64,000 nt of DNA from Desulfatiglandales bacterium (lineage in GTDB: Bacteria; Desulfobacterota; DSM-4660; Desulfatiglandales; Desulfatiglandaceae), in contig OY759599.1 of the NCBI GenBank assembly GCA_963662465.1, forward strand, positions 6,720,001 through 6,784,000, given 5' to 3'. The first letter of the stretch is position 1; every line of letters starts with the position of its first letter. The position numbers were made by a program, and so were the translations under genes. Shown here piece after piece: positions 14,272 through 63,020 of this stretch. The notes beneath the pieces are model-generated. The model worked only from the letters and a program-made list of their open reading frames with translations, did not search any database and had not been told where the DNA came from.

Positions 14272-14663
14272 AGTTGATCCAATGGATGACTTAGGTGCGC
14301 CCTCTACGCCGGTGGTACAACAGTTCCGTGCAGGCAGTTGACAGACCTGCAACCTGACCATATCCGCTGACACTGGGCAGCGGCATAAGACCTATTAATC
14401 TTCGTAGGTCCTTCGCTTGTGATCGACGCTTAAAGACATTCAGATACCTTCACCATATCATCCGACCCTGGCCCTTAACCGGGGAGGATTCCCGGAGGGG
14501 TTTTCCTGTCACCATTCAAACCCAATTCGGTACGTTGTCCGCAGGGCTTCACACCCCGTCATCAGCGCAACGGCAGCATGCCTGCGTAGGGTCCGGTAGG
14601 AACATACCGGGTACTACATGTAACTACATGAATACACTCAAACTATGCGACTTCGTGTCGCAA
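14272..14663 (-). mobile_element. 5' fragment (domain I) of a CL-type group II intron inserted in attC R'
   Basis: Begins TTGCGACACGAAGTCG; near-identical to 31940-32326. Confidence 0.8.
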
Positions 14664-14666
14664 TAT

Positions 14667-14744
14667 AACGACAAGCTCACCAGCGCCTCCTCCGGCCCCC
14701 GCTGGGACCGCCGAAGTATCAGGCGTCTGGTGGAGCGTTTGGTT
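14667..14744 (-). repeat. attC site (host family)
   Basis: AAC-GACAAGCTCACCAGCGCCT...AGGCGTCTGGTGGAGCGTTTG-GTT imperfect palindrome with extrahelical bases. Confidence 0.88.
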
Positions 14745-15102
14745 CGCAGCAATAATTCTATCTGCTGCTAAATTCCTTACGAAGCGACCGCACAACCTTG
14801 TAGTTGGCTGACGCATGGCTATATTGACTCGCTTTGTGTCAGTGGCCTTAAATTTGAACAATTCCTATTTTGAAATTAAAAACGGCGTTATAGGGTCGAA
14901 AATGAGCCCTTTTCAAACACAAAAGTTTTTAGTTCTAGCCAGTTAGCGTAGGTGAACCAGATTCAGCCGATTCAAATTGGGAATCTGAAACGAATCTCTA
15001 TTTTATTTTTCTTTGGTCAAGGTGGTGTCCCACCTTATATTATCGGTAGGCAATTCGGTGCTTATGTTCATTTCCTTCCCACTGTTAAGGTTTTCTCCAT
15101 CA

Positions 15103-17654: not shown

Positions 17655-18227
17655 TCACTTTCCAGGCAGGCTATAGGTTGCCGTAACCTCCACAAGAGCA
17701 TCACCTTTGCTTTCTCCGGCGAAGGGTTTGAGCATCCTGACCTTAAAGGTATTCTTTCCCTGAATGCCTTTGAACCGGCCCGTTCCGCAAATATATTTCC
17801 CCGTCCCATGTCCGGCTGGAAGTTTGCCTTCTTTGAGCTTTGTCATAACCCCTTCTACTTTTACCAGAGCCGTAGATCCATCTTTAAAGATAAGCTGGGA
17901 ATATCCCTGAAAGGTTCCCAGTCCCCGAACTATATCAAAGGTACATCTCAGAAGTTGCTTGGCTTTCTCGCCGTCTTCATATTCCACATCGCCTTGGCGC
18001 TCATAAAAACCGATGACCCGGCCCGGTGAATCCGGTATGGGTATGGCCTGCATCTTGGTAATCCAGTTATTGACCTTGAAATTACGGGTTACTTCGCCAG
18101 CCTGCACGACGGATGTCAACACACACAGTGAAATGACGAGGGTCATGAAGCACAGTGCCCATGGATTCAGAATTCCCCTGCCGCTGTTTCTACCTGTAAT
18201 GTTCATGCTAGTTTCTCCTTTTCCCAT
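17655..18227 (-). CDS. Secreted hypothetical protein (cassette)
   Basis: Signal peptide ...SVVQA; G.G.Y..GTGRFKGI.G motif; identical to 42426-42998. Confidence 0.7.
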   Translation of the reverse strand: MGKGETSMNITGRNSGRGILNPWALCFMTLVISLCVLTSVVQAGEVTRNFKVNNWITKMQAIPIPDSPGRVIGFYERQGDVEYEDGEKAKQLLRCTFDIVRGLGTFQGYSQLIFKDGSTALVKVEGVMTKLKEGKLPAGHGTGKYICGTGRFKGIQGKNTFKVRMLKPFAGESKGDALVEVTATYSLPGK

Positions 18228-18707: not shown

Positions 18708-20036
18708 CTACTCAACAATTGCCGCATTTACAGCGTTATTTACCTTATAACCCCATGGTAAACCTGCTCGTGGAATCTGCGACATGAACATTACCACTGT
18801 CTCATCGACGGGATCATTGAACCAAAGCGTACTCCAAAAACCTCGCCAGCCATAAGCACCTTTACCGCCGTAGCAATCGTTAAGGGCATTCATCTTTTCG
18901 TTTTTCTGTATATCCACACAATATCCCCATCGATTGTTTGTAAAATAATTTCGGAATTCATGACCCTCTGGCACTTGAATAGTAGTCATAAGTTTGACTG
19001 CTTGTCGGCTCAAAATGCGCACCCCGTCCAGTTCCCCCATATTCAACAACATTTGGGAGAATCTGTAGAAACCATAGGTGGTGCCATGCAAACCGCCTCC
19101 TGCTGCAAAGTAGGCCTTGTTTTTACCAAATGTGTAAAGCGATCCCAAAGCTACCGGTCCCATGGACCATTCTTTTGTTGCTTTCACAAGCGTACCAGGT
19201 TTGAGAAAAATAGCTGGAATTCTCGGAAAAACATTTTCTGGAGGATAAAACCAGAAATCTTTTATCTTCAATGGGGTAAAAATGTTCATTTCCATGTATT
19301 GATCAAGGGGTTTCCCGGAAAGTATTTCAACCAGATAGCCCATAACATCTGCGGCACCCTGGCTATATCCCCATCCTTCTCCCGGCTGAAAGACAAGGGG
19401 GCATTTGGCGAGAGCTTTAACATTCTTCTCCAGATTCTTAGTATAGGTCTCGCTTAACATATCCTGAACGCCTTCTTTGACAAAGCATTTTCCTACGTAG
19501 GCATGAAGGGGGCTCATGCGCATCAGCATGGTCGCTGAAATACCGCTTGTAAAGCTCAATAAATCCTGAATCCGAATTTCACGCTTTGCGGGCACCAGTT
19601 TGATCTCGCCTTCCGCATCCATCTCTGCCACTTTCATACTTTTGAATTCGGGAACATATTTTGAGACCGGATCTTTGAGCTGAAACATTCCCTGATCCCA
19701 CAATTGCATCAAGGCGACTGCTGTAATGGTTTTGGTCATAGAAGCCAATCGGAATATGGCATCCGTTTCCATGGATTTTCCTTCTTCTGCTTCACCAAAG
19801 GGTTTGAAGTAACAAATTTTGCCATGTCGGGCTACCAAAACCACTGCTCCTTTAAAAAACTTCTGCTCAAGTCCTTTTTTGACCACCTTGTCTACATTTT
19901 CGAGCATTGCACTTGATATGCCCACAGTTTCAGGGGTTACAACCTTTATCTCCTGAGCGAATGCTATTGTGGTTGAAATCAGCAGACTAAGTAAAAATAC
20001 AACTATTATTCGGGTCATTTCTTTGAGTCGTTTCAT
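18708..20036 (-). CDS. Secreted serine hydrolase (class C beta-lactamase/esterase family)
   Basis: Signal peptide, FRLASMTK (SxxK), LLSFTSG, PGEGWGYS, GGGL. Confidence 0.88.
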   Translation of the reverse strand: MKRLKEMTRIIVVFLLSLLISTTIAFAQEIKVVTPETVGISSAMLENVDKVVKKGLEQKFFKGAVVLVARHGKICYFKPFGEAEEGKSMETDAIFRLASMTKTITAVALMQLWDQGMFQLKDPVSKYVPEFKSMKVAEMDAEGEIKLVPAKREIRIQDLLSFTSGISATMLMRMSPLHAYVGKCFVKEGVQDMLSETYTKNLEKNVKALAKCPLVFQPGEGWGYSQGAADVMGYLVEILSGKPLDQYMEMNIFTPLKIKDFWFYPPENVFPRIPAIFLKPGTLVKATKEWSMGPVALGSLYTFGKNKAYFAAGGGLHGTTYGFYRFSQMLLNMGELDGVRILSRQAVKLMTTIQVPEGHEFRNYFTNNRWGYCVDIQKNEKMNALNDCYGGKGAYGWRGFWSTLWFNDPVDETVVMFMSQIPRAGLPWGYKVNNAVNAAIVE

Positions 20037-20377: not shown

Positions 20378-20455
20378 AACGACAAGCTCAGCGGCCCCTC
20401 CACCGGCCCCCGCCGGAACCGCCAGACTTCCAGGGGTCCGCTGAAGCGCCTGGTT
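20378..20455 (-). repeat. attC site (host family, subtype B)
   Basis: GCTCAGCGGCCCCT...AGGGGTCCGCTGAAGC, with compensatory changes relative to subtype A. Confidence 0.88.
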
Positions 20456-20480
20456 CGCCAACCCCGGTTTTCTTAAAAGT

Positions 20481-23229: not shown

Positions 23230-25353
23230 TCTCACGGTAGGAACGCCGGTCACCCAGCGCCCCCCGCACAGTCCCGGACGTGCGGTTTTCCCGCATCCGG
23301 TTCCTCGGTTGTACTCGCTTTCGCGCAAAGCATCAGCATTAGCAAAACACCTTTCGTGGCCGGGGTGCCGTCGGTAGCTTCGGTTTGGCGATCCCCAGGC
23401 GATTTATGGCCCGGTTGAAAGCCTTCCAGGTGAAACTTCTCCGCTTACCCCCTCTTCGGTTCAGCCACTTAAACGCACAATCACTCGCCCATCGGTAAAA
23501 ACGCCATAACGAATTGGCGTTCCCCACCACGCTGTAATAGTTGTAATGTCCGCGCAGTTTGCGGTTGAGCGTCTTTATGAACGCAATCCCCTTCAAATGT
23601 CGGTTTTCCTTCACCCATTCCTTGATGCGCCTGCAGGCACCCTGCAGCTTTTTACGGCCGGTGCGCTGCATGACTCTCACCTTTCCCTGTTTGTCATAGG
23701 TCCAGTAGGTCTCAAAACCCAAAAAGACAATCCGCCTGCGCATGCTCGGATCAAAACGACTGAATCGCATCATGGCGGTTTTATCAGGCGCTACACTGAG
23801 GCCAAACTTCAAAAGCCTTTCGGGCAGCACGTGGAAAAACCCTTTTGCCTCTTTTTTGTACTGAAAAGCACAGACAAAATCATCTGCGTACCGAATGATC
23901 ATGGCGGCCCCTTTACAGTGGGGCTTCACCACCTTTTCAAACCATAAGTCAAGGGCAAAATGCAGGTAGACATTGGCCAAAACCGGCGATACAATCCCCC
24001 CTTGGGGAGTACCGCTGTCCGGATGGATAATTTTGCCATCCGTATCCAGAATGCCGGCTTTAAGCCATTTTTGGATCAGATTTAAAAACGGCGCATCATC
24101 AACTCTTTCCATGAGCATTCGCATCAGCCAATCATGGTCCATATGGTCGAAAAAGCCTTTGATATCGGCCTCGACGACATATCCATATGATCCAAACTGA
24201 AGTTCAAAACGCAAATCATTGACAGCGTCTTTTGCGCTTCGGTTGGGCCTGTAACCATAGCTGACATTCAGAAAGTCAGCTTCGAATATGGCTGTCAGGA
24301 GTTTGGCACATGCCAATTGCACCAACCGGTCTTCAAGGGCCGGAATGCCCAAGGGGCGTTGTTTGCCGTTTTCTTTGGGGATGTAACTTCTGCGTACCAG
24401 TTTGGCACGGTAACGTCTGGTTTTCAATCGCTCCGCCAATGACGCGATATTGGCCTCAAGATTTCCTTCGTAGGCCTCGGCCGTCACTTTGTCCACACCA
24501 CTGGCTGCATCCTTATTCAGGTCTTTCCAGCAGGCACGGAGAAACGGCGCGTTCAGACACCGGTAAAGGTCTTGAAAGCGGTGTTTTCCATCAACTTTTG
24601 CCTTAATGGCTATTCCCTGCAGTGAGGTTGGCTCGTATTGTTCCAGCCCTACATTGTCCGGTGCGAGTTTCCTTTGCAGACTGCGTACTTCCGTCAGGTC
24701 CTTCCCCATGTGGTGGGCTTTCCCCACCGCTGAGTAGTATGCCTGATAAGACACCCCATTGGCGTATAGAGGGCCATCGGAGGTCCGATTTTCCTCCCAC
24801 CCGGTTGTTCCTTTCAGCATTTCGGCTGTGTAGTGAACCACTGTTACTTTACCTCACCGTCAGTGTGAAATAAACTCCCTGGAGCCTTTGGGGCTTCCCG
24901 AGTTCTACGGCGCATCTCTTCCTGCATGCCACGGCCTGAGGACTCCGGCGGACCTCCACATCCTCGCCATAAACGGATGCTTCCGTGTTGCCTTCGGTGA
25001 ACGTTCAAACCCTCGGCGTCCGCAATTGCTATTTCGAAGCTGTACCAGCACTTCAGGGTGCGCGATCACCCCTGCGGCCTACAGGATACTCTGCCTACGC
25101 TTAACCCATCTTGTTCGCTGCTTCCACCGTTAGGTGGGGTGAGTCCATCCGCCTATTTGCTCATCCCTGAGCGCGGCTCGTTTCCAACCAGCATATGAAT
25201 GCCGATGTCCTACACCTGACAGACTGAACAACTCCGCCATGGGTCCAAGGCTCGATACGGGTGGGTGGCTAACCCTTACAGAAAGCCATTACTGATTTTC
25301 CTCCCGACAGGGACTTTCACCCTGCAAGATACGCCGAGCTTTCCTCGGCGCGA
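23230..25353 (-). mobile_element. Group II intron (class E-like) inserted in attC R'
   Basis: 5' end TCGCGCCGAGGAAAGCTCGGCG; DV GAGGAACCGGATGCGGGAAAACCGCACGTCCGGGACTG; 3' CCTACCGTGAGA; removal restores GTTCGCC; ends accurate to +/-1 nt. Confidence 0.82.
23339..24841 (-). CDS. Group II intron reverse transcriptase/maturase (no endonuclease domain)
   Basis: RPLGIP, DIKGFFD, GTPQGG, RYADD, LRGHYNYY; the true start is probably later than 24841. Confidence 0.92.
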   Translation of the reverse strand: MVHYTAEMLKGTTGWEENRTSDGPLYANGVSYQAYYSAVGKAHHMGKDLTEVRSLQRKLAPDNVGLEQYEPTSLQGIAIKAKVDGKHRFQDLYRCLNAPFLRACWKDLNKDAASGVDKVTAEAYEGNLEANIASLAERLKTRRYRAKLVRRSYIPKENGKQRPLGIPALEDRLVQLACAKLLTAIFEADFLNVSYGYRPNRSAKDAVNDLRFELQFGSYGYVVEADIKGFFDHMDHDWLMRMLMERVDDAPFLNLIQKWLKAGILDTDGKIIHPDSGTPQGGIVSPVLANVYLHFALDLWFEKVVKPHCKGAAMIIRYADDFVCAFQYKKEAKGFFHVLPERLLKFGLSVAPDKTAMMRFSRFDPSMRRRIVFLGFETYWTYDKQGKVRVMQRTGRKKLQGACRRIKEWVKENRHLKGIAFIKTLNRKLRGHYNYYSVVGNANSLWRFYRWASDCAFKWLNRRGGKRRSFTWKAFNRAINRLGIAKPKLPTAPRPRKVFC

Positions 25354-25478: not shown

Positions 25479-26985
25479 GGACAGACCCGCGGGTCACACG
25501 CACATAGGTTAATGGGAGCAGGATCGCCGCTATGGAGATTAAACGATCTTTGCAGCTACCGCATGACTTCTTTTTGACCCATCATTCCGGCCTAAGCCAG
25601 TTAAAAATGATAAAATTTCTTTTTTTGATCGCATGGTCCCGCTAAAAATGCCAAAATATCGTGTTATTAGGCAGTTTACCAAACACCTCGACATCAAAAA
25701 CCTTTCACTCGACTAAAGACCTTTCGACTGCGCATGCTTAATCTATGCTGCTTGGGCGTGTATCATGTCCTGGACTTTATTGAACCTCGGAAGCTCTCTT
25801 AACTTTTTGACCGGCGTCAATATTTCCAGAGTTATGAGGCGTTTCCCGCAAACAGGGCAACAATCCGGTCGCTCGTCGCTTCGCTGTTGCCAGAGACTCT
25901 GCCAATCCAGGAATCCCAGACTTTCAAGAGGCGGTTGACCCAGTATTTCCCGGCAGAGTGCCAGTTCTTCTTTTGAGCTGTGATGATAGAGTTCGTATGA
26001 ACGCACCATCACGGTATTTGCTAGGGGGACGTGTTGCAGATAGCGGCTGATAAAGGTTTGAATCGGCAGGGAGATGAGTTTTACCTTCTCACGACCGTAA
26101 TTGAAGGTCACGTTCCCGTTTTCAATGCTGTAGATGCGTTTGTTTGAAATTGCTCCGCCTCTCAAGTAACGCGCCAGGTAAATCAACACGCCTTCACCGT
26201 ATGAATAGGTCTCTTTGAGCTTGACGTTCCATTTTTTGCGGCGGCCCAGTTTATTGAAGAGGTTCCGGGCCTGCTGAGGCCCCATACCCTCGGGCAGAAC
26301 CAGTTCGTTCCGATCCAGGGCTTTTCTCAAATAGTAGAGGTACTTGCCTCGAAATACCGCCCGGACGATGCCAAAGGGCAAAAGGAATTTTTTTGATGAA
26401 GCGATCCACTCGCCGGCGATCAGCCCACCGGCCGTTACCAGACAATGCAGATGCGGATGAAAGTCCAGTTTTCGGCTCCAGGTATGCAGTGAGGCGATGA
26501 TGCCGACTTTGCCCCCCAAATGCTTCGGATCTCCAAGGAGTTCGGAAAGGGTTTCAGTGGCGCTTTTGAACAGCAGATTGCCCATAAGCTTGCGGTTCAA
26601 CCGCCATAAGTCGTGCAATTCATCGGAGATGGTGAAAATAACATGGAAATGTTCGGTGTTTAAGATGCGAGCCTTTTGTTTTGCCAGCCAACGTTCCACC
26701 TGGGTAAAAGCGCAGAGGGGGCACATGCGATGTTTACACGAGTTGTACCAGTGCCTTTTGAAGTGACCGTCCGGGCACGCCTGCACGTGACCCCCCAGAG
26801 CAGATGTGCGGCAACTCATCAGACGGTGTGCCGCTTCACGAATATGTTCCGGAAGAAGATGGGTCTGATCATAGAGGGCATAGCCTATAAGAAAGATGCT
26901 CTGAATCGTCGCTTCCACTGAAACCTCCTTTATTTACTGGGAGTTACGACGTTAGTTCCCCCGCTGTCCAGCGGGTCTGTCCAAC
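25476..26985 (-). mobile_element. IS91-like element/cassette bounded by a 15-bp inverted repeat GTTGGACAGACCCGC
   Basis: IR at 25476-25490 and 26971-26985, coinciding with attC R boxes. Confidence 0.75.
25743..26918 (-). CDS. IS91-family (Y2 HUH) rolling-circle transposase
   Basis: CRT..LGG, NSCKHRMCPLC zinc domain, HVIFTI, LHTW, HPHLH, YLARY. Confidence 0.92.
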   Translation of the reverse strand: MEATIQSIFLIGYALYDQTHLLPEHIREAAHRLMSCRTSALGGHVQACPDGHFKRHWYNSCKHRMCPLCAFTQVERWLAKQKARILNTEHFHVIFTISDELHDLWRLNRKLMGNLLFKSATETLSELLGDPKHLGGKVGIIASLHTWSRKLDFHPHLHCLVTAGGLIAGEWIASSKKFLLPFGIVRAVFRGKYLYYLRKALDRNELVLPEGMGPQQARNLFNKLGRRKKWNVKLKETYSYGEGVLIYLARYLRGGAISNKRIYSIENGNVTFNYGREKVKLISLPIQTFISRYLQHVPLANTVMVRSYELYHHSSKEELALCREILGQPPLESLGFLDWQSLWQQRSDERPDCCPVCGKRLITLEILTPVKKLRELPRFNKVQDMIHAQAA

Positions 26986-28246: not shown

Positions 28247-28388
28247 TTATCATCACCCTATTCTCCTATGGGTATGGTAGTTGATGTTACCCATCAACTT
28301 GGAGCTCTCTTTTTCGTAGATACCACAGATGTCCTCCTGCCGGGTAGCCGGGGGATGTTGCCATCCCCGAGCCCCCTCAGAACCACTA

Positions 28389-28775
28389 TATAATGCCCAT
28401 CAAAACCAGTTTATAACTTGGGTATATTACCCATTTCACCCAAGAACCGGTGAAGAAATTTATGTGGTAGGTACCAGAAACCATCGTGGAGAAACTTGTT
28501 TTGTAACAAAGAAACCTGATGGTCGCCATGAATTGATACCTGCGTGGATGACCAATCCAAAGTATGAAAAGATATCCCTCGGCTCAAAACCCGCTATCGA
28601 AATCAGGGCGCTTAAGAATTTATATTGCTTAATAGTGAATAGAAAAATACCGTTTCCTCCTGATGAAGTCAATTCGAAAACAAGGAGGAAAGATGACGAA
28701 ACAAAAATATCATCAACTTCGGCTTTGGGATTATTTACCATCACCGATCGAAATTCCAATAGAAACACGAAATAG
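28389..28775 (+). CDS. DUF5372 (Y4bD/Y4pK)-like accessory protein
   Basis: VYYPFHPRTG...PDG...IPAWMT motif typical of ORFs upstream of this recombinase type; start codon unclear. Confidence 0.55.
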   Translation, partial: YNAHQNQFITWVYYPFHPRTGEEIYVVGTRNHRGETCFVTKKPDGRHELIPAWMTNPKYEKISLGSKPAIEIRALKNLYCLIVNRKIPFPPDEVNSKTRRKDDETKISSTSALGLFTITDRNSNRNTK

Positions 28776-29053
28776 ATTGATTGATTTCCTTGCAGAGCTT
28801 CTGTCAGGTTTCTGGCAAAATTCTGAGGGTAACAGAAATAGAAAAGAGAAGTAGTTTCACTAACGTAAAATCGCGGTCTGATATTGGAAGCAGTCAAGAG
28901 ACTGGAGTTGTTGAAGCAAGCAGCTTAATCCGACTCAGAAAAATCGTAACTATAAATCATAAATAGCTTATTTTCCGATAGAAATAGGTGTTTAATTGAA
29001 AAACGTACGCGGTATTCAAAAATATTGGACGAATTTGAAGGTGAAAAGGAGCG

Positions 29054-29260
29054 ATGAAAATGAGAGGTGGGAGTCGAAAAGGCGCTGGTCGAAAAAGGAG
29101 TCCTGAACATCTGAGGCGTATCCCCGTCACGATTCGGTTACGGAAGTGGATGGTTTCACAGATCAAAATGAAAGGCGAGATAGGGTATTTGATTGAACTC
29201 GAATTAGCGACGAAAAAGGGTTTTCTCGACTTACCAGATGATTATCTGGTCGGAAGCTGA
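29054..29260 (+). CDS. Small basic hypothetical protein (RGG.RKGAGRK motif)
   Basis: AGGAG RBS; basic N-terminus then a possible ribbon-helix-helix. Confidence 0.5.
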   Translation: MKMRGGSRKGAGRKRSPEHLRRIPVTIRLRKWMVSQIKMKGEIGYLIELELATKKGFLDLPDDYLVGS

Positions 29261-29416
29261 CTAAGGTGCGGTTATGGTCGCTCTTTTAATGGATATTTCG
29301 GCAGGAGCCACCGGAGCCTTCTATGACCTCGTCGCAGCTTACAATTACTCATATGGGGGTCAAAATTCGGTTGTCGCAAGAGGTCAATTTTCGGTTGACA
29401 TTTCGAGAAAAGAAAG

Positions 29417-31510
29417 GTGGAAATGAGCATGAGCAATAAAATCAATGCTGAACATATTAGTCGGGAAGCATGTATATATATCCGTCAGTCAACACCGGGC
29501 CAAGTTCTACAGCATCGTGAAAGCCAACTTTTACAATATGGCTTGGTAGAAAGGGCAAAAGAATTAGGATGGAACGAGAAAAACATATGGATGATAGATA
29601 GTGATTTGGGAATAACTGCATCGGGATGCGTTGACAGAAAAGGATTCCAGAATCTTCTTTCATCTGTGTGTGAAGGAAGAATAGGGGGTATTTTCTCGAT
29701 TGAATCATCGAGGTTGGCCCGCAACGGTCGAGAGTGGCATACGTTGCTTGAGATCTGTGCACTTAAAAAAACGGTTCTTGTAGATCAAGGAGCTGTTTAT
29801 GACCTAAACGTGTCAAATGATCGTTTGCTCCTGGGCTTAAAGGGAGAAATGAGTGCAATGGAATTGAGCCTATTAAAGGAGCGTTCTCAGGCGGCAATAC
29901 AACAAAAAGCGAAGCGGGGAGAATTATATCTTACTGTACCGGCAGCCTATATAAAGACTAGGGATAATAAGCTGAAAAAGAATCCTGACAAACGAATTCA
30001 AGAAGTCATTGATTTGGTATTCACGAAATTCAAGGAATATGGTACTCTTCGTCGGGTGTATCATTGGTTTTTAGATGAACAGATTGAGATTGCTGTTGTT
30101 TCCAGCGGTAAAGGGGAACGTAGGATAGAGTGGAAACTACCGTCTGCTCATACCTTGTCGCATATAGTGAACAACCCAATTTACGCCGGCGCCTACGTCT
30201 ATGGCCGGACTAAAACAGAGGTAACTTTTGAAAATGGGCGCAAGCGACTGAGGAAGGGTATTCGTAAGGAACAAAAGGATTGGGACGTTTTAATATTGGA
30301 TCACCATGAAGGTTACATCACATGGGAAGAGTACCAGTATAACATGGAGATACTAACTCAAAATACAAATAAGAAAAGGCCGGTGGTGAGAGGAGCTGTT
30401 CGCGGAGGAAAGGCATTGCTTGGAGGTTTGTTAAGATGCGGTCATTGCGGTAGAAAGTTAATTGTACGATACCAAGGCCGTAATGGAACTCATAAACGTT
30501 ATGAGTGTAGCCGCAAACGAGGTAACGAGACAGGAAAGGCGTGTATATCATTTGGTGGATTCCGTGTTGACCGGGCTGTTACGGATTTTCTTTTGAAAGT
30601 ATTATCACCGATAGGATTAGAAGCTTCTTTAGAGGCGATAAAGAAAATCAACCATGAATCGGATTCAGTGAAACGGCAACGGGAACTGGAGTTGGAACAA
30701 GCGCGTTATGAAGCTTTACGGGCAAAACGTCAATACAATGCAGTAGACCCTGATAATCGTTTGGTAGCATCTACATTGGAGAAGGATTGGAATGACGCTC
30801 TTGTTAAGGTAGCAAGATTGGAGAATGAGGTTGACGCCATGGGATCGAACACCCCTTCGCTTTCCCCTGAGGAGGAGACTGAGATCAGAGATCTATCAAA
30901 AGATTTACCTCGTGTATGGAATGATCCGTTTTGCTCTTTGGATTTAAAGAAGCGTATAATCCGGACGGTTATCAAAGAGATCGTTGTTTATTTGGAAGAT
31001 CAAAAGATCAAATTAATCATTCACTGGGAAGGGGGTGAGCATACGGAATTGGAGGTATTGAAGAATAAGTCTTCCAGTTACCCATTGAAAACCGATGTTG
31101 ATACAAAAAAGATAATATCCGATTTGGCTAGAATTATGCCTGATAAACACATCGTGGCCTTTCTCAACCGTGTGGGTACAAAGACTACAAAGGGATATAC
31201 CTGGAATCCGGTAAGGTTGCGTTCATTTCGAAATAGGCATAATATCCCTGTATATCATGAAGGAGAGAGGCAGCGACGAGAAGAATATACGGTAGCTGAA
31301 GCAAGCGAAAGGCTGGGTATTGGCAGCACCAAAGTTTGGAGACTTATACAACATGAGATTCTACCCGCCAAGCGAGTATGTTCCGGTGCTCCATGGATCA
31401 TTTCAAAAAAGGACCTTGAATCTGAAGTGATAAAAAAGGCAGCTCATTCCGGGCTTCCAAAGAGCCCGCTTTCAAGAAACTCAAAACAACAAGTCTTTAA
31501 TTTTCAATAA
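29417..31510 (+). CDS. Large serine recombinase
   Basis: YIRQST catalytic Ser, SRLARN, NPIYAG recombinase domain, LLGGLLRCGHCG zinc ribbon, C-terminal HTH. Confidence 0.93.
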   Translation: MEMSMSNKINAEHISREACIYIRQSTPGQVLQHRESQLLQYGLVERAKELGWNEKNIWMIDSDLGITASGCVDRKGFQNLLSSVCEGRIGGIFSIESSRLARNGREWHTLLEICALKKTVLVDQGAVYDLNVSNDRLLLGLKGEMSAMELSLLKERSQAAIQQKAKRGELYLTVPAAYIKTRDNKLKKNPDKRIQEVIDLVFTKFKEYGTLRRVYHWFLDEQIEIAVVSSGKGERRIEWKLPSAHTLSHIVNNPIYAGAYVYGRTKTEVTFENGRKRLRKGIRKEQKDWDVLILDHHEGYITWEEYQYNMEILTQNTNKKRPVVRGAVRGGKALLGGLLRCGHCGRKLIVRYQGRNGTHKRYECSRKRGNETGKACISFGGFRVDRAVTDFLLKVLSPIGLEASLEAIKKINHESDSVKRQRELELEQARYEALRAKRQYNAVDPDNRLVASTLEKDWNDALVKVARLENEVDAMGSNTPSLSPEEETEIRDLSKDLPRVWNDPFCSLDLKKRIIRTVIKEIVVYLEDQKIKLIIHWEGGEHTELEVLKNKSSSYPLKTDVDTKKIISDLARIMPDKHIVAFLNRVGTKTTKGYTWNPVRLRSFRNRHNIPVYHEGERQRREEYTVAEASERLGIGSTKVWRLIQHEILPAKRVCSGAPWIISKKDLESEVIKKAAHSGLPKSPLSRNSKQQVFNFQ

Positions 31511-32329
31511 CGTACGGAGGTGTGTATTATGCCGCTATTACCCTCAGAACCACGCATGAGACTTTCACCTCACGTGGCTCAAGCCCCCGAAAAGGTTTCC
31601 CTGGTGGGGATTCCCGCAGATTTGCATCCACTTCACGTTACAGGCCGGCTGTCAGAATAGCCAAAGGCGCACGGGGCGCACCAGCCTCAAGGGCCGTCAT
31701 TCGCCCGTTTCACTGGCTGCTTTCCCCGCTTTCATCTGATTCCTCCGGTGTTCACGTGATCGGGCACCGCGCTGAACGTCTGCCTCCTTACGGAGCCGGG
31801 AATGTTTCACCCGGTATCCGGGCCATTACAGCCCGGCATTCGCTTCTTTCAGCCTCCTATTCCGGCCCGCCAACAGCATGCCTTGCGGTTAGCCTGCCCC
31901 CAAAAGGGGCGACGGGACCGGGTTTCCACGTTCCGCATAGTTGATCCAATGGATGACTTAGGTGCGCCCTCTACGCCGGTGGTACAACAGTTCCGTGCAG
32001 GCAGTTAGCAGACCTGCAACCTGACCACATCCGCTGACACTGGGCAGCGGCATAAGACCTATTAATCCTCGTAGGCCCTTCGCTTGTAATCGACGCTTAA
32101 AGACATTCAGATACCTTCACCATATCATCCGACCCTAGCCCTTAACCGGGGAGGATTCCCGGAGGGGTTCTCCTGTCACCATTTGAACCCAATTCGGTAC
32201 GTTGTCCGCAGGGCTTCACACCCCGTCATCAGCGCAACGGCAGCATGCCTGCGTAGGGTCCGGTAGGAACATACCGGGTACTATAACTACTTGAATACAC
32301 TCAAACTATGCGACATCGTGTCGCAAGCC

Positions 32330-42425: not shown

Positions 42426-42998
42426 TCACTTTCCAGGCAGGCTATAGGTTGCCGTAACCTCCACAAGAGCATCACCTTTGCTTTCTCCGGCGAAGGGTTT
42501 GAGCATCCTGACCTTAAAGGTATTCTTTCCCTGAATGCCTTTGAACCGGCCCGTTCCGCAAATATATTTCCCCGTCCCATGTCCGGCTGGAAGTTTGCCT
42601 TCTTTGAGCTTTGTCATAACCCCTTCTACTTTTACCAGAGCCGTAGATCCATCTTTAAAGATAAGCTGGGAATATCCCTGAAAGGTTCCCAGTCCCCGAA
42701 CTATATCAAAGGTACATCTCAGAAGTTGCTTGGCTTTCTCGCCGTCTTCATATTCCACATCGCCTTGGCGCTCATAAAAACCGATGACCCGGCCCGGTGA
42801 ATCCGGTATGGGTATGGCCTGCATCTTGGTAATCCAGTTATTGACCTTGAAATTACGGGTTACTTCGCCAGCCTGCACGACGGATGTCAACACACACAGT
42901 GAAATGACGAGGGTCATGAAGCACAGTGCCCATGGATTCAGAATTCCCCTGCCGCTGTTTCTACCTGTAATGTTCATGCTAGTTTCTCCTTTTCCCAT
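42426..42998 (-). CDS. Secreted hypothetical protein (duplicate of 17655-18227)
   Basis: Identical translation. Confidence 0.7.
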   Translation of the reverse strand: MGKGETSMNITGRNSGRGILNPWALCFMTLVISLCVLTSVVQAGEVTRNFKVNNWITKMQAIPIPDSPGRVIGFYERQGDVEYEDGEKAKQLLRCTFDIVRGLGTFQGYSQLIFKDGSTALVKVEGVMTKLKEGKLPAGHGTGKYICGTGRFKGIQGKNTFKVRMLKPFAGESKGDALVEVTATYSLPGK

Positions 42999-45344: not shown

Positions 45345-45423
45345 AACGACAAGCTCACCGGCCCCCTGCACCGGGCTTTGCGATTACCCCGCCGCGTCCA
45401 GGGGTCCGGTGAAGCGTTTTGTT
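45345..45423 (-). repeat. attC site (host family variant), R'' split by a IIC intron
   Basis: AACGACAAGCTCACCGGCCCC...GGGGTCCGGTGAAGCGTTTTGTT; continues as AACCG at 46253. Confidence 0.85.
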
Positions 45424-46252
45424 GTGTGCCGGGCACGGCACGTGTTCTTAAGGGTGCGCGTAATGTACCATGCTTCCGATATTTTACGCAAGTCCCAGAC
45501 CCAGCCAGGTAGTGGCGAAGGGTGTAGCGGTATCACAACTGGGTACCCGGTAACGGGCCTGGAGAGGCAGTGGCCTTGCCGCAGCAGGGCACCGCAAACG
45601 CACGGGGCGACGAACAGAAATCGAGTGAGGCGGGTCTGGTGGGACGAGTTCGCAACACAGAACAAAGTCCTCTAACTACTATAGGCCAGGCACGTATACT
45701 CGGCGCTCGTGTGCGGAAAGACACGTGTTTACCCCGGGAGGCCCGTTGCGTCTCGTAGGGAACTGCAACTGAAATCCACCGGAATATAAGGGAAAACCGG
45801 TAAAACAAAACCCTGGCGTCAGGAACATTTCGAGTCATAGCCCTGACGAGCCCGGCCTATTGGTCGGGAAACACAAACAAATGGACTCGACAGATTGCGG
45901 AAACCACGAGTGAGCGAACCGCAAGGGGAGCCCACCGCGTAACGGGAGTCAGCAGAGGGCATATTAAGCCGGAGAAACGAGCCCTGAATAAAGGGAAGCC
46001 TCACTCCGGTGAAGGCCCGAACGGTCCCACCTGCCGAATGGCAGGGGTAAATGGTCGTGGTTGTCAAAGAACGTGTACTTGTTGGCTTAATGCAGCAGTA
46101 GCTGAAAGGTCGATAACGTCGCATTCTGGAAAACCCGGTAGGGCGGAACCTGTTTTATCCGTGCCTGCTCTGACCAGCCGAATCGCCGTATACGGACCCG
46201 TATGTACGGTGGTGTGGGAGGGGGGAGCTGTGAGGCTCCTCCCTATCCCCAT
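45424..46252 (+). mobile_element. ORF-less group IIC-attC intron
   Basis: Inserted after TTGTT on the attC bottom strand; 5' GTGTGCCGGGCACGGCAC; IIC DV ATCGCCGTATACGGACCCGTATGTACGGTGGT; 3' CCCTATCCCCAT; no RT ORF. Confidence 0.85.
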
Positions 46253-47354
46253 AACCGCATTCTGATTTTCCTAATTGCACGGAATTGGTGAGTAAGGACG
46301 CGCACTTTGCTTTATACCTGGTGTATTAATCCGTTTCCAGGTTGGAGCCCATACTTAGCGCATCTCTAGATTTCAACTGATGAAATCGACGTCACACATG
46401 ACCCTTTTTAAAGGGTATTCTTCCTTATATGTTTTTCCAATGACTTTCGGTTAGGTAGTGCTCTCCGCAGCGTCACTCCGTTGCGGCAGAAAGGACTGCT
46501 GGTTAATTGCCCGCCAATATTTCATTATTGAGAAACCACTTTGAAATTCGGCTGTAGCTTCAAAGTCCCACCTCCTGATGCAAGTGGATTGTAAATTTCG
46601 CTAACTCCGTAATGTTCCGAGAAAGAGTTATTCCAACCACCGCTGATGGTAATAGTTCCCGCCTTTTTCCAGTTCGGTGACTCTAGAAAAGTATCGGCAT
46701 CGACCTTGATGAGCGAGCCATCTTGCGCCGCTTCCAGGGCAAGCTGAATCGTCTCATAACAAGGTTCTTGGCCACATTGCCCATCTGCATCTACATATAA
46801 AGTGGATGAATAAGAGGTAGTAAATGAGATATCATCGCCATAACCTGTTCCTGCTGAATTAGTTGCATAAGCCCTTAAATGATATGCGGTGCCAGGGGCT
46901 AAACCAGTAACCGAACTTACAAAACTGTCGGTCCCCGAACCTTCATTCGTTTTTGTAGTTAAAGCAACCGTGGGGTTTGGCGATGTGCTCCAACAAACGC
47001 CCTTTTGCGTTACAGATAATCCTCCATTTGATGAAATGTTGCCATCCGATATAGCACTGCTATCCGTTATGGAGGATATTGGAACCGTATTGACTGTAGG
47101 CACGTCATAAATAGTTATAAGTCCCTGGGAGGTCTGTTTTGAGGTATCATTAAGAGGTTCAATCTTGATAACAGAATTTACTGAGGCTGGTCCTGTCACT
47201 TTCCATTCATAAAAACCATCATTTTCTGTGGATGCAATGACGGTCTCAAAAGAATTGTTTTTTCCACCTTCCCTGGAAATTGATATCTTAACGTTTCCTG
47301 AAATGCTTTTAGTATCCCATTCCACGTTCATTTGGTTTCCGACTTTCCACCTAG

Positions 47355-57306: not shown

Positions 57307-57323
57307 GATTATTTATGACCCCT

Positions 57324-60620: not shown

Positions 60621-60713
60621 GTGAGGTTCTCCTTCCTTAACGGCTGCTATTTCCCGAATACGCTTGAGCACATGAAGGCAACGGGCCAAACCGAGCACCG
60701 TCATGTATCGCAC

Positions 60714-62939
60714 GTCGAGTAGCCAGGGGATGTTGCCATCCCCCAGCCCTCTAAGAACCGTGCGTGCGCCGTTAAACGCACACGGCTCAAGCATTCCAAA
60801 GGCAAGCCCTTTCGGGGCTACCCGGTTGTGACGTTTTATGCTCTTTACGCCTGTCTGCCTTCTGCTGACTGCGTTGGGCATATCGTTTCCTGAAATAGTG
60901 TTCATATTTCGGATCGAAGGGGTTCGCATCCCCTCGAATTTTGACATGGCGTTTTATCTTGACGTCGTAAGCTTTCTCAAGTTCAATTCTAGCGGATTTC
61001 GCATAGCCGTCCTTGATCACCGCTGAAAAGGACCACGGACGAGATCCTTTTGACCAGTATTTATCCACCAGCCAACTCTTACTCTTGCCCGAATGTTTCC
61101 TCCTCATCCATTGCCAAATATAGCTGTAGATACGGTGATCTACAAGCCCGAAAGTTCTACCGGAAACCACATGCCTGTGGTAATTGGCCCATCCCCTGAT
61201 TTTGGGATTGAGCACTTTAATCAGGGTGTCGGCTCTTGATGCCGCATGCTTTCGGATCGTTTGCCGGATATTGCCTAAGAAGGCTTTCACGTTTTTACGA
61301 GAGGGCTTTATCAAGAGCTTCCCCTGGTATTTGCGTGGATTCTGTCCGAGAAAATCAAATCCTTCTTCTATCCTTGTGATCAACGTCTTTTCCGCTGAAA
61401 GCGAAAGTCCTCTTCGCTCCATAAATGCTTCAATTTCCAGCTTGATCTCATTTAGCATCTCTCTGGAATTCCCGGTGATGATGAAATCATCAGCGTAACG
61501 GATTACGTTTATCTTGGACCGTATATTGCCCTGGATTCTTATCGGGGCGGTACTTTTGGCTGCCGCTTCCAGACCATCCAGGACCATATTAGCCAATGTT
61601 GGAGAGATAATCCCGCCTTGCGGGGTTCCTCTGTAAGTCGGATAGAGCTTGCCTCCTTCCACATAACCGGATTTCAGCCATTTCTGAAGCGTCCGTTTAT
61701 CCATGGGGATATTTTCGAGCATCCATTGATGGCTGATTTCGTCAAAACAGGCCTTTATGTCTCCCTCCAAAATCCATGCGGGTGAGTAGCTCTTGGCCAG
61801 AGAAATAAAACAATGACCGATGGCATCCGCACATCCTCGATAGGCTCTGAACCCATAAGAGTTCGGATCGGCGGTGGTTTCCGCCACCGGATCAAGGGCC
61901 AGTTTGTGCAACGCCTGCATGGCTCTGTCTTTCATGGTGGGAATGCCCAATGGGCGTTTCTTGCCGTTTTTCTTGGGTATGTAAATTCGGCGCAGCGGTT
62001 TGGGTCGGTAAGTTCTTCGGTGCAGGTCTTTTGCCGCCTGCATTTTGTCAATGTGGGTGGACCATATAACTTTATCCACTCCCGGCGTGCGTTTACCTCG
62101 GTTGGAAGTAACGCGCTTGATGGCCAACAACTTGGCATAAAACGAATGGGTCAAAAGCCATTGTATTGCCTTAACCTTTCCCCATCGCTTTTCCTTCACA
62201 GCCTTTGCGATACGCACCTGCAGTCTTCTAACGTGCTCGCCGGCGGTTCTCCAGTTTATGGATTTCCACCAGTTTGTTCCGTCCAAAGGTGCACCAGTCG
62301 CCAAAATGGCCACCGTCATTTGCTTTCCCCTGTTTGAAGATTCTACAAATTATCTCGCAATGGAACACCGGTCAGAAGTCTGCTCTCTTTCGAGCCGGAT
62401 CATGTAGGTGATTACACCGTCAATCCGTATCCCCATCATTACAACGGGGCATTTGCTTTTTTCTGACATCCTTTACCCGCAACCCCATGGGCTCACCTTG
62501 CGGTTCGCTTTCCCCGTGGGGAGGATTACGGGCTTACCATGTTCCGCGTAAGTACCCGAGCAGGTTAGGTTCCGCCCGTACGCCGGTGGCACGACATCCG
62601 CGATGGAGGAGTTCGCAGCCCCCATACCTGGCCACATACCGTTTGGTCCAAGCCTTTCAGCATCTTAGGCTTGTTCTCGTGACGACGCTGCAGCGATTCA
62701 CATGTGTTAACCATACTGCTCAATTCTAGCTCCCTTACCGCATGATGCTTGCAGAGTTGAGGTCTCCTCACGGTTCCCTCTCCCGGAAGATTCCGCGGGC
62801 TTCATTGTCCCGAGAGCTTCACACCCCCGGATTACTCCGGACGCATGTCCCGGTAGAATACCTGTTGCAGAAAACAGGGTTTTGTTATATGGTTTATATC
62901 AATATACAAAACAGCTACTTACGCGACATCACGTCGCAC
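60714..62939 (-). mobile_element. Complete CL-type group II intron inserted in attC R'
   Basis: 5' GTGCGACGTGATGTCG; DV GAGCCGTGTGCGTTTAACGGCGCACGCACGGTTC; 3' CTACTCGAC; removal restores GTTCGCG. Confidence 0.9.
60787..62319 (-). CDS. Group II intron reverse transcriptase/maturase (CL lineage, no HNH domain)
   Basis: RVT_N (VRRLQVRIAKA), RPLGIPT, GTPQGG, RYADD, IRGWANYH. Confidence 0.93.
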   Translation of the reverse strand: MTVAILATGAPLDGTNWWKSINWRTAGEHVRRLQVRIAKAVKEKRWGKVKAIQWLLTHSFYAKLLAIKRVTSNRGKRTPGVDKVIWSTHIDKMQAAKDLHRRTYRPKPLRRIYIPKKNGKKRPLGIPTMKDRAMQALHKLALDPVAETTADPNSYGFRAYRGCADAIGHCFISLAKSYSPAWILEGDIKACFDEISHQWMLENIPMDKRTLQKWLKSGYVEGGKLYPTYRGTPQGGIISPTLANMVLDGLEAAAKSTAPIRIQGNIRSKINVIRYADDFIITGNSREMLNEIKLEIEAFMERRGLSLSAEKTLITRIEEGFDFLGQNPRKYQGKLLIKPSRKNVKAFLGNIRQTIRKHAASRADTLIKVLNPKIRGWANYHRHVVSGRTFGLVDHRIYSYIWQWMRRKHSGKSKSWLVDKYWSKGSRPWSFSAVIKDGYAKSARIELEKAYDVKIKRHVKIRGDANPFDPKYEHYFRKRYAQRSQQKADRRKEHKTSQPGSPERACLWNA

Positions 62940-62942
62940 GCG

Positions 62943-63020
62943 AACGACAAGCTCAGCGGCCCCTCCACCGGCCCCCGCCGGAACCGCCAGACTTCCAGGG
63001 GTCCGCTGAAGCGCCTGGTT
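62943..63020 (-). repeat. attC site (host family, subtype B)
   Basis: Identical to 20378-20455. Confidence 0.88.

What the first reader, a model, noticed from the sequence alone, without database searches (positions are those of the whole stretch)
14272..62945. CL-type group II introns repeatedly insert at one fixed register in attC R' (GTT+3, cassette-sense strand)
Seen: three junctions share one geometry on the minus strand: GAGCTTGTC-GTT-ATA|TTGCG (14663), -GTT-GGC|TTGCG (32326) and -GTT-CGC|GTGCG (62939). For the latter two, removing the intron restores an R' box complementary to the next cassette's R''. Two distinct ribozymes are involved, and the intact one encodes a CL-lineage RT without an endonuclease. 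Established: the well-characterised attC-targeting introns are class IIC, which insert in the opposite (bottom) strand by recognising the hairpin. Inference: these look like a separate attC-specialised group that targets by base pairing. The putative EBS2 is ACAAGC in the ORF-less intron, a perfect complement of the attC GCTTGT at -13..-8, and ACGAG in the intact one. The putative EBS1 loops (AUUAA, GCUGA) could tolerate the variable GTTRRR through wobble pairs. Inserting just inside the cassette start makes the intron part of a mobile cassette.
Basis: partly seen in the sequence, partly recalled or inferred. Interest (0 to 1): 0.85.

Follow-up and report, generated by a model that had tools for sequence, protein, structure and literature searches.

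The report
Group IIB introns homing to integron attC
A family of self-splicing mobile introns has made the recombination sites of a giant bacterial integron its landing pad, always six bases into the core motif and in the reading direction of the gene cassettes, because two loops of the intron RNA base-pair with that site.

Summary
Three minus-strand junctions read GAGCTTGTC-GTT-NNN|intron (intron starts 62939, 32326, 14663). In the whole genome, 21 of 28 copies of this intron family sit at GTT+3. So do 8 of 12 copies in congeners and 2 copies in another genus with a different attC family.

The reverse transcriptase (RT) is CL1-like: 568 bits to the T.el4h RT against 109-114 bits to IIC RTs, and no endonuclease domain. 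Targeting by base pairing is supported by covariation, not by experiment.

- EBS1 is not in the AUUAA/GCUGA loops. It is 5'-NNNAAC-3' (GCGAAC, GCUAAC, GUCAAC) in a later hairpin loop and pairs with R' GTTNNN.
- The "ORF-less" intron does not end at 31512. A 3.2-kb serine-recombinase element sits behind domain V, and the intron ends at 28339.
- Related Desulfamplus introns use other registers inside attC, so the register follows each intron's EBS sequences.

One IIB1/CL1 intron next to an attC is in print (UHB.I2, Sonbol and Siam 2021), so I class this as a new variant of a known kind. This scan found the same lineage before on other DNA of this genome. Splicing, mobility and cassette hitch-hiking remain untested.

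The parts
62940..63024 (-). attC of the DUF4258 cassette: R'' GGCGAAC at 63024-63018, R' GTTCGC at 62945-62940. This is the 5' exon of the intact intron (IBS1 = GTTCGC, IBS2 = CTTGT at 62951-62947).
   Evidence: An identical attC without an intron lies at 20378.
60714..62939 (-). Intact group IIB1/CL1 intron ('type A', 2226 nt), 5' GTGCG ... CTACTCGAC 3'. EBS2 ACGAG at 62680-62676. EBS1 GCGAAC at 62616-62611 in the loop of hairpin 62623-62605. Domain V at 60788-60755.
   Evidence: Rfam RF02012 122.5 bits and RF00029 55 bits. Sequence, coordinates. Two further copies 100% identical over 2225 nt lie at other attC sites.
60790..62319 (-). Intron-encoded reverse transcriptase/maturase, 510 aa, with a YADD motif and no endonuclease domain.
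   Evidence: Pfam RVT_N, RVT_1 and GIIM, no HNH hit. Best solved relative is the T.el4h RT 6me0_C, E 1.7e-169, 568 bits; LtrA scores 144 bits and IIC RTs 109-114 bits. T.el4h is named IIB1/CL1 in PMC8643678.
32327..32411 (-). attC: R'' GGCCAAC at 32411-32405, R' GTTGGC at 32332-32327. This is the 5' exon of the middle intron (IBS2 GCTTGT at 32339-32334).
28339..32326 (-). ORF-less IIB intron ('type C') carrying a cargo element, 3988 nt in all. 5' TTGCG. EBS2 ACAAGC at 32087-32082. EBS1 GCTAAC at 32009-32004. Domain V at 31580-31547. True domain VI and 3' end at 28373-28339 (...GGCTACCCGGC).
   Evidence: RF02012 79.3 bits. The same unit, bounded at exactly these ends, lies at about 99% identity at 3 other sites with different flanks. 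Copies without the cargo show the normal domain VI. Sequence.
28374..31540 (+). Inserted element of about 3.17 kb between domain V and domain VI, flanked by the 13-nt repeat GTGGTTCTGAGGG (31553-31541 and 28386-28374). It encodes a 697-aa large serine recombinase (29417-31507, + strand).
   Evidence: Pfam Resolvase, Recombinase and Zn_ribbon_recom. Repeats. Copies. The Rfam 'domain VI' at 31541-31512 is the element's end, not intron sequence.
14664..14748 (-). Last attC of the array: R'' TGCGAAC at 14748-14742, R' GTTATA at 14669-14664. This is the 5' exon of the truncated copy.
14272..14663 (-). 5' fragment (392 nt, domain I only) of a type C intron. EBS2 ACAAGC at 14420-14415. EBS1 GTCAAC at 14342-14337, which pairs with only 3 of 6 positions of GTTATA.
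   Evidence: RF02012 79.7 bits. 95.9% identical to the middle copy over 392 nt. Its end is set and the pairing.

Best explanation
The window is part of a chromosomal integron cassette array of about 110 kb, read on the minus strand. Its attI-like site and an IS-interrupted intI lie 60 kb beyond the window.

Three members of a CL1-type, endonuclease-less group IIB intron family are inserted in the cassette-sense (top) strand, six bases into the R' core (GTTNNN|). They are one intact copy, one ORF-less copy with cargo, and one 5' fragment.

The register is set by ordinary IIB target recognition. EBS1, 5'-NNNAAC-3' in the terminal loop of a distal hairpin of domain I, pairs with GTTNNN; its AAC reads the invariant GTT. 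EBS2 (ACGAG or ACAAGC, unpaired in the multibranched loop of subdomain ID) pairs with CTTGT / GCTTGT at -12/-13..-8. That is the conserved stretch just before R' in this host's attC repeat family. The homing site is therefore the integron's own repeated recombination site.

ORF-less copies are presumably moved in trans by the RT of intact copies.

The 5' exon survives an insertion, so the site can be hit again, which gives tandem introns. The intron lies 5 nt behind the G|TT crossover, so it belongs to the downstream cassette and can be carried along by the integrase.

Shown here: the anatomy, the copy distribution and the covariation. Inferred: retrohoming, trans-mobilisation, splicing from cassette transcripts, and hitch-hiking.
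For: 1. Distribution.
- 28 RF02012 copies in the genome: 21 at GTT+3 (18 behind attC, 2 behind attI-like sites, 1 behind an unverified GTT), 3 directly behind another intron, 4 irregular.
- In 61 related genomes, 6 had matches, counting the window's own. Of the 12 loci in the other five, 8 are at attC GTT+3.
- Two ORF-less type-A-like copies in a Desulfobacterium MAG sit at GTT+3 of an unrelated attC family.

2. Independence of the insertions. NNN differs between copies (CGC, GGC, AGC, ATA, GTG, GGA, CTC ...) and so do the 3' exons. Homology stops exactly at the intron ends. Three type A copies are 100% identical at three different attC sites.

3. EBS1.
- GCGAAC pairs with GTTCGC; GCUAAC with GTTAGC or GTTGGC; GUCAAC with GTTGGC.
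- Compensatory cases: CCUAAC with GTTGGG (L039), UUUAAC with GTTAGA (L053), CUUAAC with GTTAAT (L052).
- Over 26 junctions, 61 of 78 variable positions pair, against 49.0 +/- 3.0 after shuffling; 1 of 10,000 shuffles reached 61. In 13 of 26 junctions all six positions pair.
- The stem of this hairpin covaries.

4. Site choice. Of 99 sites with the conserved attC 3' motif, 18 are occupied. 12 of the 18 read xGC at -3..-1, against 10 of the 81 empty sites; Fisher p = 6.5e-6.

5. EBS2. It is unpaired in the RNAalifold consensus. In the Desulfamplus relatives the same segment reads AAGCGA opposite TCGCTT, and one copy has AACGA opposite TCGTT, which is compensatory.

6. Class. The RT scores 568 bits to the CL1 RT of T.el4h, against 144 bits (ML) and 109-114 bits (IIC). 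There is no HNH domain.
Against: - No experiment and no spliced exon junction. RNA-library contigs cover the intron but show no joint.
- Some junctions pair badly: GTTATA in the window pairs at 3 of 6 positions, GTTCTC at 4 of 6.
- EBS2 does not change where IBS2 varies (GCTTAT, GCTTAA, GCTAGA), so mismatches at -8/-9 are simply tolerated.
- The copies are kin, so the shuffle test overstates independence.
- 5 of 7 attI-like sites carry an intron or an intron stub although they have no IBS2. That is a higher share than at attC (18 of 99). Pairing alone does not explain it.
- EBS3 and EBS2a were not assigned.
- By GC skew the targeted strand is the leading-strand template in most arrays. This is not the bias that I recall, without a call to back it, for endonuclease-less introns.
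- No RT tree against reference classes was built. The class rests on similarity to one solved CL1 RT.
Confidence: 0.85

Rival explanations
1. One or a few ancestral insertions, then spread by the integron. The integrase shuffles and duplicates cassettes that begin with TTNNN-intron, so the repeated geometry reflects cassette mobility and not repeated intron homing.
For: - The intron lies inside the cassette, 5 nt behind G|TT.
- Copies stand behind attI-like sites that lack IBS2: 4 RF02012 copies plus one 9-nt stub, on 7 such sites.
- Some junctions are shared between genomes: GTTGTG| in G000 and L042, GTTGGA| in G000 and L038.
- Cassettes are duplicated within the window.
Against: - Cassette transfer keeps TTNNN with the intron, yet NNN takes at least 9 values.
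- 3' exons differ between copies, and homology ends at the intron ends, not at cassette ends.
- Tandem introns occur at one site, A-A-C at genome position 3329531.
- Occupied sites are enriched for NNN that pairs with EBS1.
- This likely contributes to some copies but cannot be the sole cause.
Confidence: 0.08
2. Structure-guided insertion, as in class IIC. The RNP recognises the folded attC hairpin of the top strand and inserts at a fixed distance behind it, with only a short IBS1.
For: - attC is an imperfect palindrome, so the top strand can also fold (a point raised by Sonbol and Siam).
- The geometry 'hairpin, then GTT, then a few bases' mirrors the IIC-attC site on the other strand. An intron at 45424-46252 on the + strand shows this in the window.
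Against: - The RT and ribozyme are CL1/IIB-like, not IIC.
- A 5-6 nt EBS2 is present and covaries in relatives.
- In the folded hairpin, R' would be paired with R'' and so hidden from EBS1.
- Relatives insert inside the 5' arm of attC, or at a non-attC site with perfect IBS1 AAGCGG (L048), as their EBS sequences predict.
- Copies also stand behind attI-like sites that have no attC hairpin.
Confidence: 0.05
3. Coincidence or mis-set intron boundaries.
Against: The 5' boundaries are fixed by 28 aligned copies. GTT stands at -6..-4 in 21 of 28 copies, against about 1 in 64 expected by chance.
Confidence: 0.01

Closest known systems
UHB.I2, an integron-associated group IIB1 intron with a CL1 RT from a soda-lake metagenome (Sonbol and Siam 2021, PMC7923331; I read the abstract, sections 7 and 10, and passages)
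   Same: IIB1/CL1 and without an endonuclease. Same orientation as the cassettes. Directly behind an attC. 5' end UUGCG, as in types B and C here.
   Different: UHB.I2 is a single copy on a contig edge. Its authors report poor exon conservation among homologues, no register, and no link between EBS and attC, and they speculate about the hairpin. Here there are dozens of copies, a defined register, EBS1/EBS2 assigned with covariation, and tandem and attI-adjacent copies. Sequence relatedness to UHB.I2 was not tested because its sequence was not on hand. Its supplementary figures S5 and S7 were not read.
Group IIC-attC introns such as S.ma.I2 (PMC3001079 passages; PMC7923331 background; PMC4424553 passages)
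   Same: They use integron attC sites as insertion sites and sit next to the conserved GTT/AAC core.
   Different: IIC-attC introns have a class C RT, lie in the bottom strand antisense to the cassettes at R'' (TTGT/T), recognise the hairpin, have no EBS2, and cannot be spliced from cassette transcripts. The introns here are CL1/IIB, lie in the top strand at R' GTT+3, and have both EBS1 and EBS2. Both kinds occur in this window: a IIC-attC-like copy lies at 45424-46252 on the + strand.
T.el4h (Th.e.I3) and EcI5, IIB1 introns with CL1 RTs (PMC8643678 passages; PDB 6me0)
   Same: The RT is the closest solved relative (568 bits). The recognition scheme is the same: EBS1/IBS1 at -1..-6 and EBS2 in the multibranched loop of subdomain ID. 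From memory, with no call behind it: T. elongatus also has ORF-less copies moved by driver RTs.
   Different: Those introns home to ordinary gene or intron sites. Here the target is a repeated recombination site of another mobile system. The EBS2a-IBS2a pair described for them could not be assigned here.
Desulfamplus MAG introns (L047-L050, RT 50% identical)
   Same: Same RF02012 ribozyme type and sense-strand insertion in attC. EBS1 and EBS2 lie in the same structural places.
   Different: Other registers: inside the 5' arm of attC (..TTCGCTCCAGGGG|ACGCC..), one at GT|T of R', and one outside attC. EBS1 is CCGCUU and EBS2 is AAGCGA.

Membership tests
Group IIB1 intron with CL1 reverse transcriptase | RT groups with the chloroplast-like 1 lineage | tested here: inconclusive
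   No tree was built. Similarity to the CL1 RT of T.el4h is 568 bits over residues 8-485, against 144 bits (LtrA, ML) and 109-114 bits (IIC). CL1 is the label that PMC8643678 gives T.el4h. Plasmid-borne ltrA genes are 54-56% identical but carry no class label. This is strong but is not a phylogeny.
Group IIB1 intron with CL1 reverse transcriptase | Ribozyme with domains I-VI, a 34-nt domain V with the AGC triad, and a bulged A in domain VI | tested here: met
   RF02012 and RF00029 are above gathering score. Domain V GAGCCGTGTGCG...GGTTC is 34 nt, and domain VI reads ..GGCTA*CTCGAC.
Group IIB1 intron with CL1 reverse transcriptase | EBS1 (6 nt, terminal loop) pairs with -1..-6, and EBS2 (5-6 nt, unpaired in subdomain ID) pairs with about -8..-13 | tested here: met
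   61 of 78 variable EBS1 positions are paired, compensatory changes occur in L039, L052, L053 and L049, and both segments are single-stranded in the consensus fold.
Group IIB1 intron with CL1 reverse transcriptase | Consensus ends 5' GUGYG ... AY 3' | tested here: met
   Met by the intact intron: GUGCG...GAC. Types B and C start UUGCG, and type C ends GGC or GAU. UHB.I2 also deviates, with UUGCG..GU.
Group IIB1 intron with CL1 reverse transcriptase | EBS3-IBS3 pair at +1, and the EBS2a-IBS2a pair | tested here: inconclusive
   The +1 base of type A 3' exons is C in 5 of 10, otherwise T, G or A. I could not assign EBS3 or EBS2a.
Group IIC-attC introns | Class C RT and IIC ribozyme without EBS2 | tested here: not met
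   IIC RTs score 109-114 bits against 568 bits for CL1. EBS2 is present.
Group IIC-attC introns | Inserted in the attC bottom strand at R'' (TTGT/T), antisense to the cassettes | tested here: not met
   All three copies lie in the top strand at R' GTT+3, on the same strand as the cassette ORFs. The definition comes from PMC3001079 and PMC7923331.
Integron-associated IIB1/CL1 introns of the UHB.I2 kind | CL1 RT without endonuclease, sense to the cassettes, directly behind an attC | tested here: met
Integron-associated IIB1/CL1 introns of the UHB.I2 kind | Sequence relatedness to UHB.I2 itself | not testable with these tools

The most novel reading that the evidence does not exclude
CL1 group IIB introns of sulfate-reducing Desulfobacteria have repeatedly re-tuned EBS1 and EBS2 to the conserved attC repeats of their hosts' giant integrons, using different registers in different hosts. 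That would make attC a second, base-pairing route of intron-integron symbiosis, beside the IIC-attC route.

These introns sit 5 nt behind the integrase crossover and leave the upstream hairpin and six of the seven bases of R' intact. They would therefore ride as part of cassettes: 5 of 7 attI-like sites carry one or a stub. They can be spliced out of cassette transcripts, can stack in tandem, and can even carry a 3.2-kb recombinase element as cargo while still spreading.
Probability: 0.45. Interest if true: 0.75.

Novelty: new variant of a known kind. Interest (0 to 1): 0.62.

Why it matters
The 2015 review of group II intron evolution lists three target specificities: homing sites, terminators, and attC. 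It ties attC to class C introns, which recognise structure.

Here a CL1/IIB lineage reaches the same integron sites by plain base pairing, on the other strand and at the other end of the site. So two intron classes converge on one recombination site by different mechanisms, and both are present in this one window.

Sense-strand introns can be spliced from cassette transcripts and leave the G|TT crossover intact. They should therefore be nearly neutral passengers that the integrase can move. That is a testable case of one mobile system hitch-hiking on another.

IIB1/CL1 introns can be retargeted through their EBS sequences. A natural attC-targeting set gives ready-made specificities for marking or probing integron arrays.

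Tried and rejected
Rejected: the loop is conserved in introns with unrelated 5' exons.
- Intron end at 31512. Rejected: all 'full' type C copies shared 70 nt of identical '3' exon'. That led to the inserted element and to the true end at 28339.
- Spliced exons in RNA. One run search and one laying of 4 metatranscriptome runs gave contigs over the intron and the attC, but no joint and no cover of the 3' exon. This gives no verdict on splicing. Loose ends at 60714 only agree with the 3' boundary.
- The search for related loci with the RT in genome contigs returned only 9 loci. L051 (an archaeon, 32% identity) was not examined.
- A script with a bad end pattern failed and was redone.
- Type B junctions (GTTCG|, GTTCGAG|, and one behind another intron lacking its first T) could not be brought to one register.
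- EBS2a/IBS2a and EBS3 could not be assigned.
- The replication-strand test is rough. Two DnaA-like genes and a shallow skew leave the origin somewhere between 4.8 and 5.8 Mb.
- Not used: structure prediction, complex prediction and the protein database searches. The question did not need them.
- Literature searches. Searches ('group II intron' + attC + integron: 28 papers; attC / 'group IIB' / 'top strand') found only PMC7923331 for IIB introns at attC. Subscription journals are not covered.
Full report
**Setting.**
Rfam finds five group II intron ribozymes in the window:
- three RF02012 matches on the minus strand (62730-62879, 32138-32278, 14471-14611);
- one RF02001 on the plus strand (45544-45728);
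- one RF02005 on the minus strand (24933-25146).

The minus strand carries a cassette array. Twelve copies of a conserved attC repeat of about 80 nt end in GAGCTTGTCGTT, and most ORFs between them are on the same strand. They are typical cassette cargo: toxin-antitoxin genes, HEPN/nucleotidyltransferase, and proteins of unknown function.

The window is bases 6,720,001-6,784,000 of a single 8.16-Mb contig. The array runs from an attI-like site at genome position 6,844,194 down to the truncated intron at window 14272. A divergent integrase gene, interrupted by a DDE_5 transposase gene, lies beyond the attI-like site. The genome holds at least six to seven such attI-like platforms and one intact intI.

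**The observation.**
The three junctions are exactly as described:
- ...GAGCTTGTCGTT-CGC|GTGCGAC (intron starts 62939)
- -GGC|TTGCGAC (32326)
- -ATA|TTGCGAC (14663)

The geometry is general. Of the 28 RF02012 copies in the genome:
- 21 have the form GTTNNN|intron: 18 behind attC, 2 behind attI-like sites, 1 behind an unverified GTT;
- 3 follow the 3' end of another intron directly, including an A-A-C triple at one attC;
- 4 are irregular (GTT+2, +4, +4, +0).

In 61 related genomes, 6 had matches, counting the window's own. Of the 12 loci in the other five, 8 are at attC GTT+3, 1 is at a contig edge and 3 are elsewhere.

**What the introns are.**
The right-hand copy (62939 to 60714, 2226 nt) is intact:
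- It starts GUGCG, has a 34-nt domain V with the AGC triad, and has a domain VI with a bulged A.
- It holds a 510-aa ORF with RVT_N, RVT_1 (YADD) and GIIM, and no HNH domain.
- Its closest solved relative is the T.el4h RT (E 1.7e-169, 568 bits). LtrA scores 144 bits and the IIC RTs 109-114 bits. PMC8643678 calls T.el4h a IIB1 intron with a CL1 RT.
- Two further copies are 100% identical over 2225 nt at other attC sites, which argues for recent movement.

I built no tree against reference classes, so 'CL1' rests on this similarity.

The other two copies belong to a second sequence type (C). A third type (B) exists elsewhere in the genome.

**Correction of the middle intron.**
All type C copies that looked complete shared an identical '3' exon', which real exons should not do. 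A genome-wide comparison shows a unit that starts at the intron's first base and ends at window 28339. It is present at about 99% identity at three other sites with different flanks.

At 28386-28339 the sequence reads GTGGTTCTGAGGG-GGCTCGGGGATGGCAACATCCCCCGGCTACCCGGC. This is the end of domain V plus a normal domain VI, as seen in the shorter type C copies.

A 3.17-kb element is inserted between domain V and domain VI. It encodes a 697-aa large serine recombinase on the other strand and is flanked by the 13-nt repeat GTGGTTCTGAGGG. The Rfam 'domain VI' at 31541-31512 is the element's end. The intron is therefore 32326 to 28339.

The left copy is a 392-nt 5' fragment that ends at 14272.

**How the register is set: EBS1.**
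Aligning all copies and more distant relatives shows a hairpin with a covarying stem late in domain I. Its 9-11-nt loop holds:
- GCGAAC in type A, the exact complement of GTTCGC;
- GCUAAC, GUCAAC or CUCAAC in type C.

The loop changes with the exon:
- CCUAAC opposite GTTGGG (L039)
- UUUAAC opposite GTTAGA (L053)
- CUUAAC opposite GTTAAT (L052)

The last two stand in an attC family with a quite different sequence, in a Desulfobacterium MAG.

Over 26 junctions with GTT and a readable loop, 61 of 78 variable positions pair. Shuffling gives 49.0 +/- 3.0, and 1 of 10,000 shuffles reached 61. In 13 of 26 junctions all six positions pair. The copies are kin, so this overstates independence.

A second line of evidence is site choice. 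Of 99 sites with the conserved attC 3' motif, 18 are occupied. Of those, 12 read xGC at -3..-1, against 10 of the 81 empty sites (Fisher p = 6.5e-6).

**How the register is set: EBS2.**
The segment between GUCG and that constant hairpin is unpaired in the RNAalifold consensus.
- In type C it reads ACAAGC, which pairs with GCTTGT at -13..-8.
- In type A it reads ACGAG, which pairs with CUUGU at -12..-8 with one G-U pair.

In Desulfamplus relatives (RT 50% identical) the same segment reads AAGCGA opposite TCGCTT. One copy has AACGA opposite TCGTT, which is a compensatory change.

Within this genome EBS2 does not follow the small IBS2 variants (GCTTAT, GCTTAA, GCTAGA). These are simply tolerated.

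**Other registers.**
The Desulfamplus introns also sit in the sense strand of attC, but elsewhere:
- three inside the 5' arm (R''..TTCGCTCCAGGGG|ACGCC...GTT);
- one at GT|T of R';
- one at a non-attC site with perfect IBS1.

Copies from a Trueperaceae MAG (54% identity) are not in attC. The register follows the EBS sequences, which speaks for pairing and against hairpin recognition.

**Cassette hitch-hiking.**
The integrase crossover is G|TT, so TTNNN plus the intron belongs to the downstream cassette. The upstream hairpin and six of the seven R' positions stay intact.

Four RF02012 copies and one 9-nt stub stand behind 5 of 7 attI-like sites (..ATAATCACTGGTTNNN|). These sites have no IBS2. 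Arrival with a cassette explains this best. However, the share is higher than at attC (18 of 99), and I cannot exclude direct insertion by EBS1 alone.

Cassette shuffling alone cannot explain the family: NNN and the 3' exons vary, and homology ends at the intron ends.

One IS91-like cassette shows both states. Fifteen intron-less copies start GTTGGAC-AGACCC, and two intron-bearing copies (one type A, one type C) read GTTGGC|intron|CAGACCC. The -1 base is the one that pairs with EBS1.

**Against and open.**
- There is no experimental evidence.
- RNA-library contigs cover the intron but give no spliced joint.
- The fragment at 14663 pairs with only 3 of 6 positions.
- EBS3 and EBS2a are unassigned.
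- By cumulative GC skew (minimum 5.5 Mb, maximum 1.75 Mb; DnaA-like genes at 4.83 and 5.77 Mb) the targeted strand is the leading-strand template in most arrays.

**Comparison with what is known.**
IIC-attC introns insert in the bottom strand at R'' (TTGT/T), antisense to the cassettes, using the hairpin and no EBS2. The introns here fail each of these features.

The closest report is UHB.I2: one IIB1/CL1 intron, sense, directly behind an attC, 5' UUGCG. No register or EBS-attC link was given for it, and exon conservation among its homologues was described as poor.

My literature searches found no other paper on IIB introns at attC.

This scan had already noted the same lineage, and the recombinase element, on other DNA of this genome. 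I reached my reading before looking (notes), and the earlier notes agree with it.

**Verdict.**
It is wrong on EBS1, on one boundary, and on the generality of one register. I class it as a new variant of a known kind.

Noticed in passing
window 28374-31553 (recombinase ORF 29417-31507, + strand): A 3.17-kb element with a large serine recombinase is inserted between domain V and domain VI of the type C intron, flanked by the 13-nt repeat GTGGTTCTGAGGG. The same element lies in other type C copies and in a type B intron (genome position 4984138). It therefore seems to target the intron core, and the intron-plus-element unit has still spread to 4 sites.
   Followed up: partly
window 45424-46252 (+), attC 45345-45423 plus 46253-46256: An ORF-less intron (RF02001 and RF00029) lies in the bottom strand directly behind the GTT of the R'' complement (..GCGTTTTGTT|GTGTGCC ... 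CCCCAT|AACC), antisense to the cassettes. This is the IIC-attC arrangement. The reverse complement of its 5' end recurs in front of several other attC sites in the genome. Its class was not tested.
   Followed up: partly
window about 23340-25300 (-): A third kind of intron: RF02005 domains I-IV at 24933-25146 and a 500-aa RT (23342-24841). The RT is about equally distant from IIC, CL1 and ML RTs (140, 137 and 135 bits). It is preceded by the hairpin GCGCCGAG-GAAA-CTCGGCGT. Its insertion site was not analysed.
   Followed up: no
window 60713-60700 (-): The 3' exon of the intact intron begins GTGCGATACATG, which looks like the first 6 nt of a type A intron. A 9-nt stub GTGCGACGT stands behind the attI-like site at genome position 3200399. 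It may be what is left of an older tandem copy.
   Followed up: no
window 20378-20470 vs 62943-63035; 17658-18227 vs 42429-42998; 14670-14860 vs 41430-41620: Cassettes are duplicated within the array. The attC upstream of the intact intron recurs identically at 20378 with a different, intron-less continuation (GTTGTGCCCC). This shows that TTNNN belongs to the next cassette.
   Followed up: partly
genome positions 452640, 2362641, 3200399, 4983378, 5886487, 6844194, 622945: Seven attI-like sites share about 110-280 nt and end in ..ACTGGTT. Five carry an intron or an intron stub at GTT+2..4. Only one has an intact intI next to it. The window's own intI is split by a DDE_5 transposase gene.
   Followed up: partly
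genome positions 4412980-4425229 and window 25746-26985: An IS91-type (Y2_Tnp) transposase is packaged as a cassette starting GTTGGAC-AGACCCGCTGG. Eight tandem copies with a 1609-nt period lie near 4.42 Mb, and one copy is in the window.
   Followed up: no
whole genome; window array: By cumulative GC skew (minimum about 5.5 Mb, maximum about 1.75 Mb), cassette genes of the large arrays are head-on to replication. That puts the attC bottom strand on the lagging-strand template. As far as I recall, and no call backs this, that is the opposite of what is described for sedentary chromosomal integrons.
   Followed up: partly
window 18711-20036 (-): One cassette encodes a 442-aa protein of the Pfam Beta-lactamase family (PF00144, E 2e-56). 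This family also holds many esterases and penicillin-binding proteins. Its function was not examined.
   Followed up: no
genome positions 3337135 and 3345271: Two type A copies start ATGCG instead of GTGCG, both behind GTTGGC, but with different 3' exons. I cannot explain how a copy with a changed first base came to stand at two sites.
   Followed up: no
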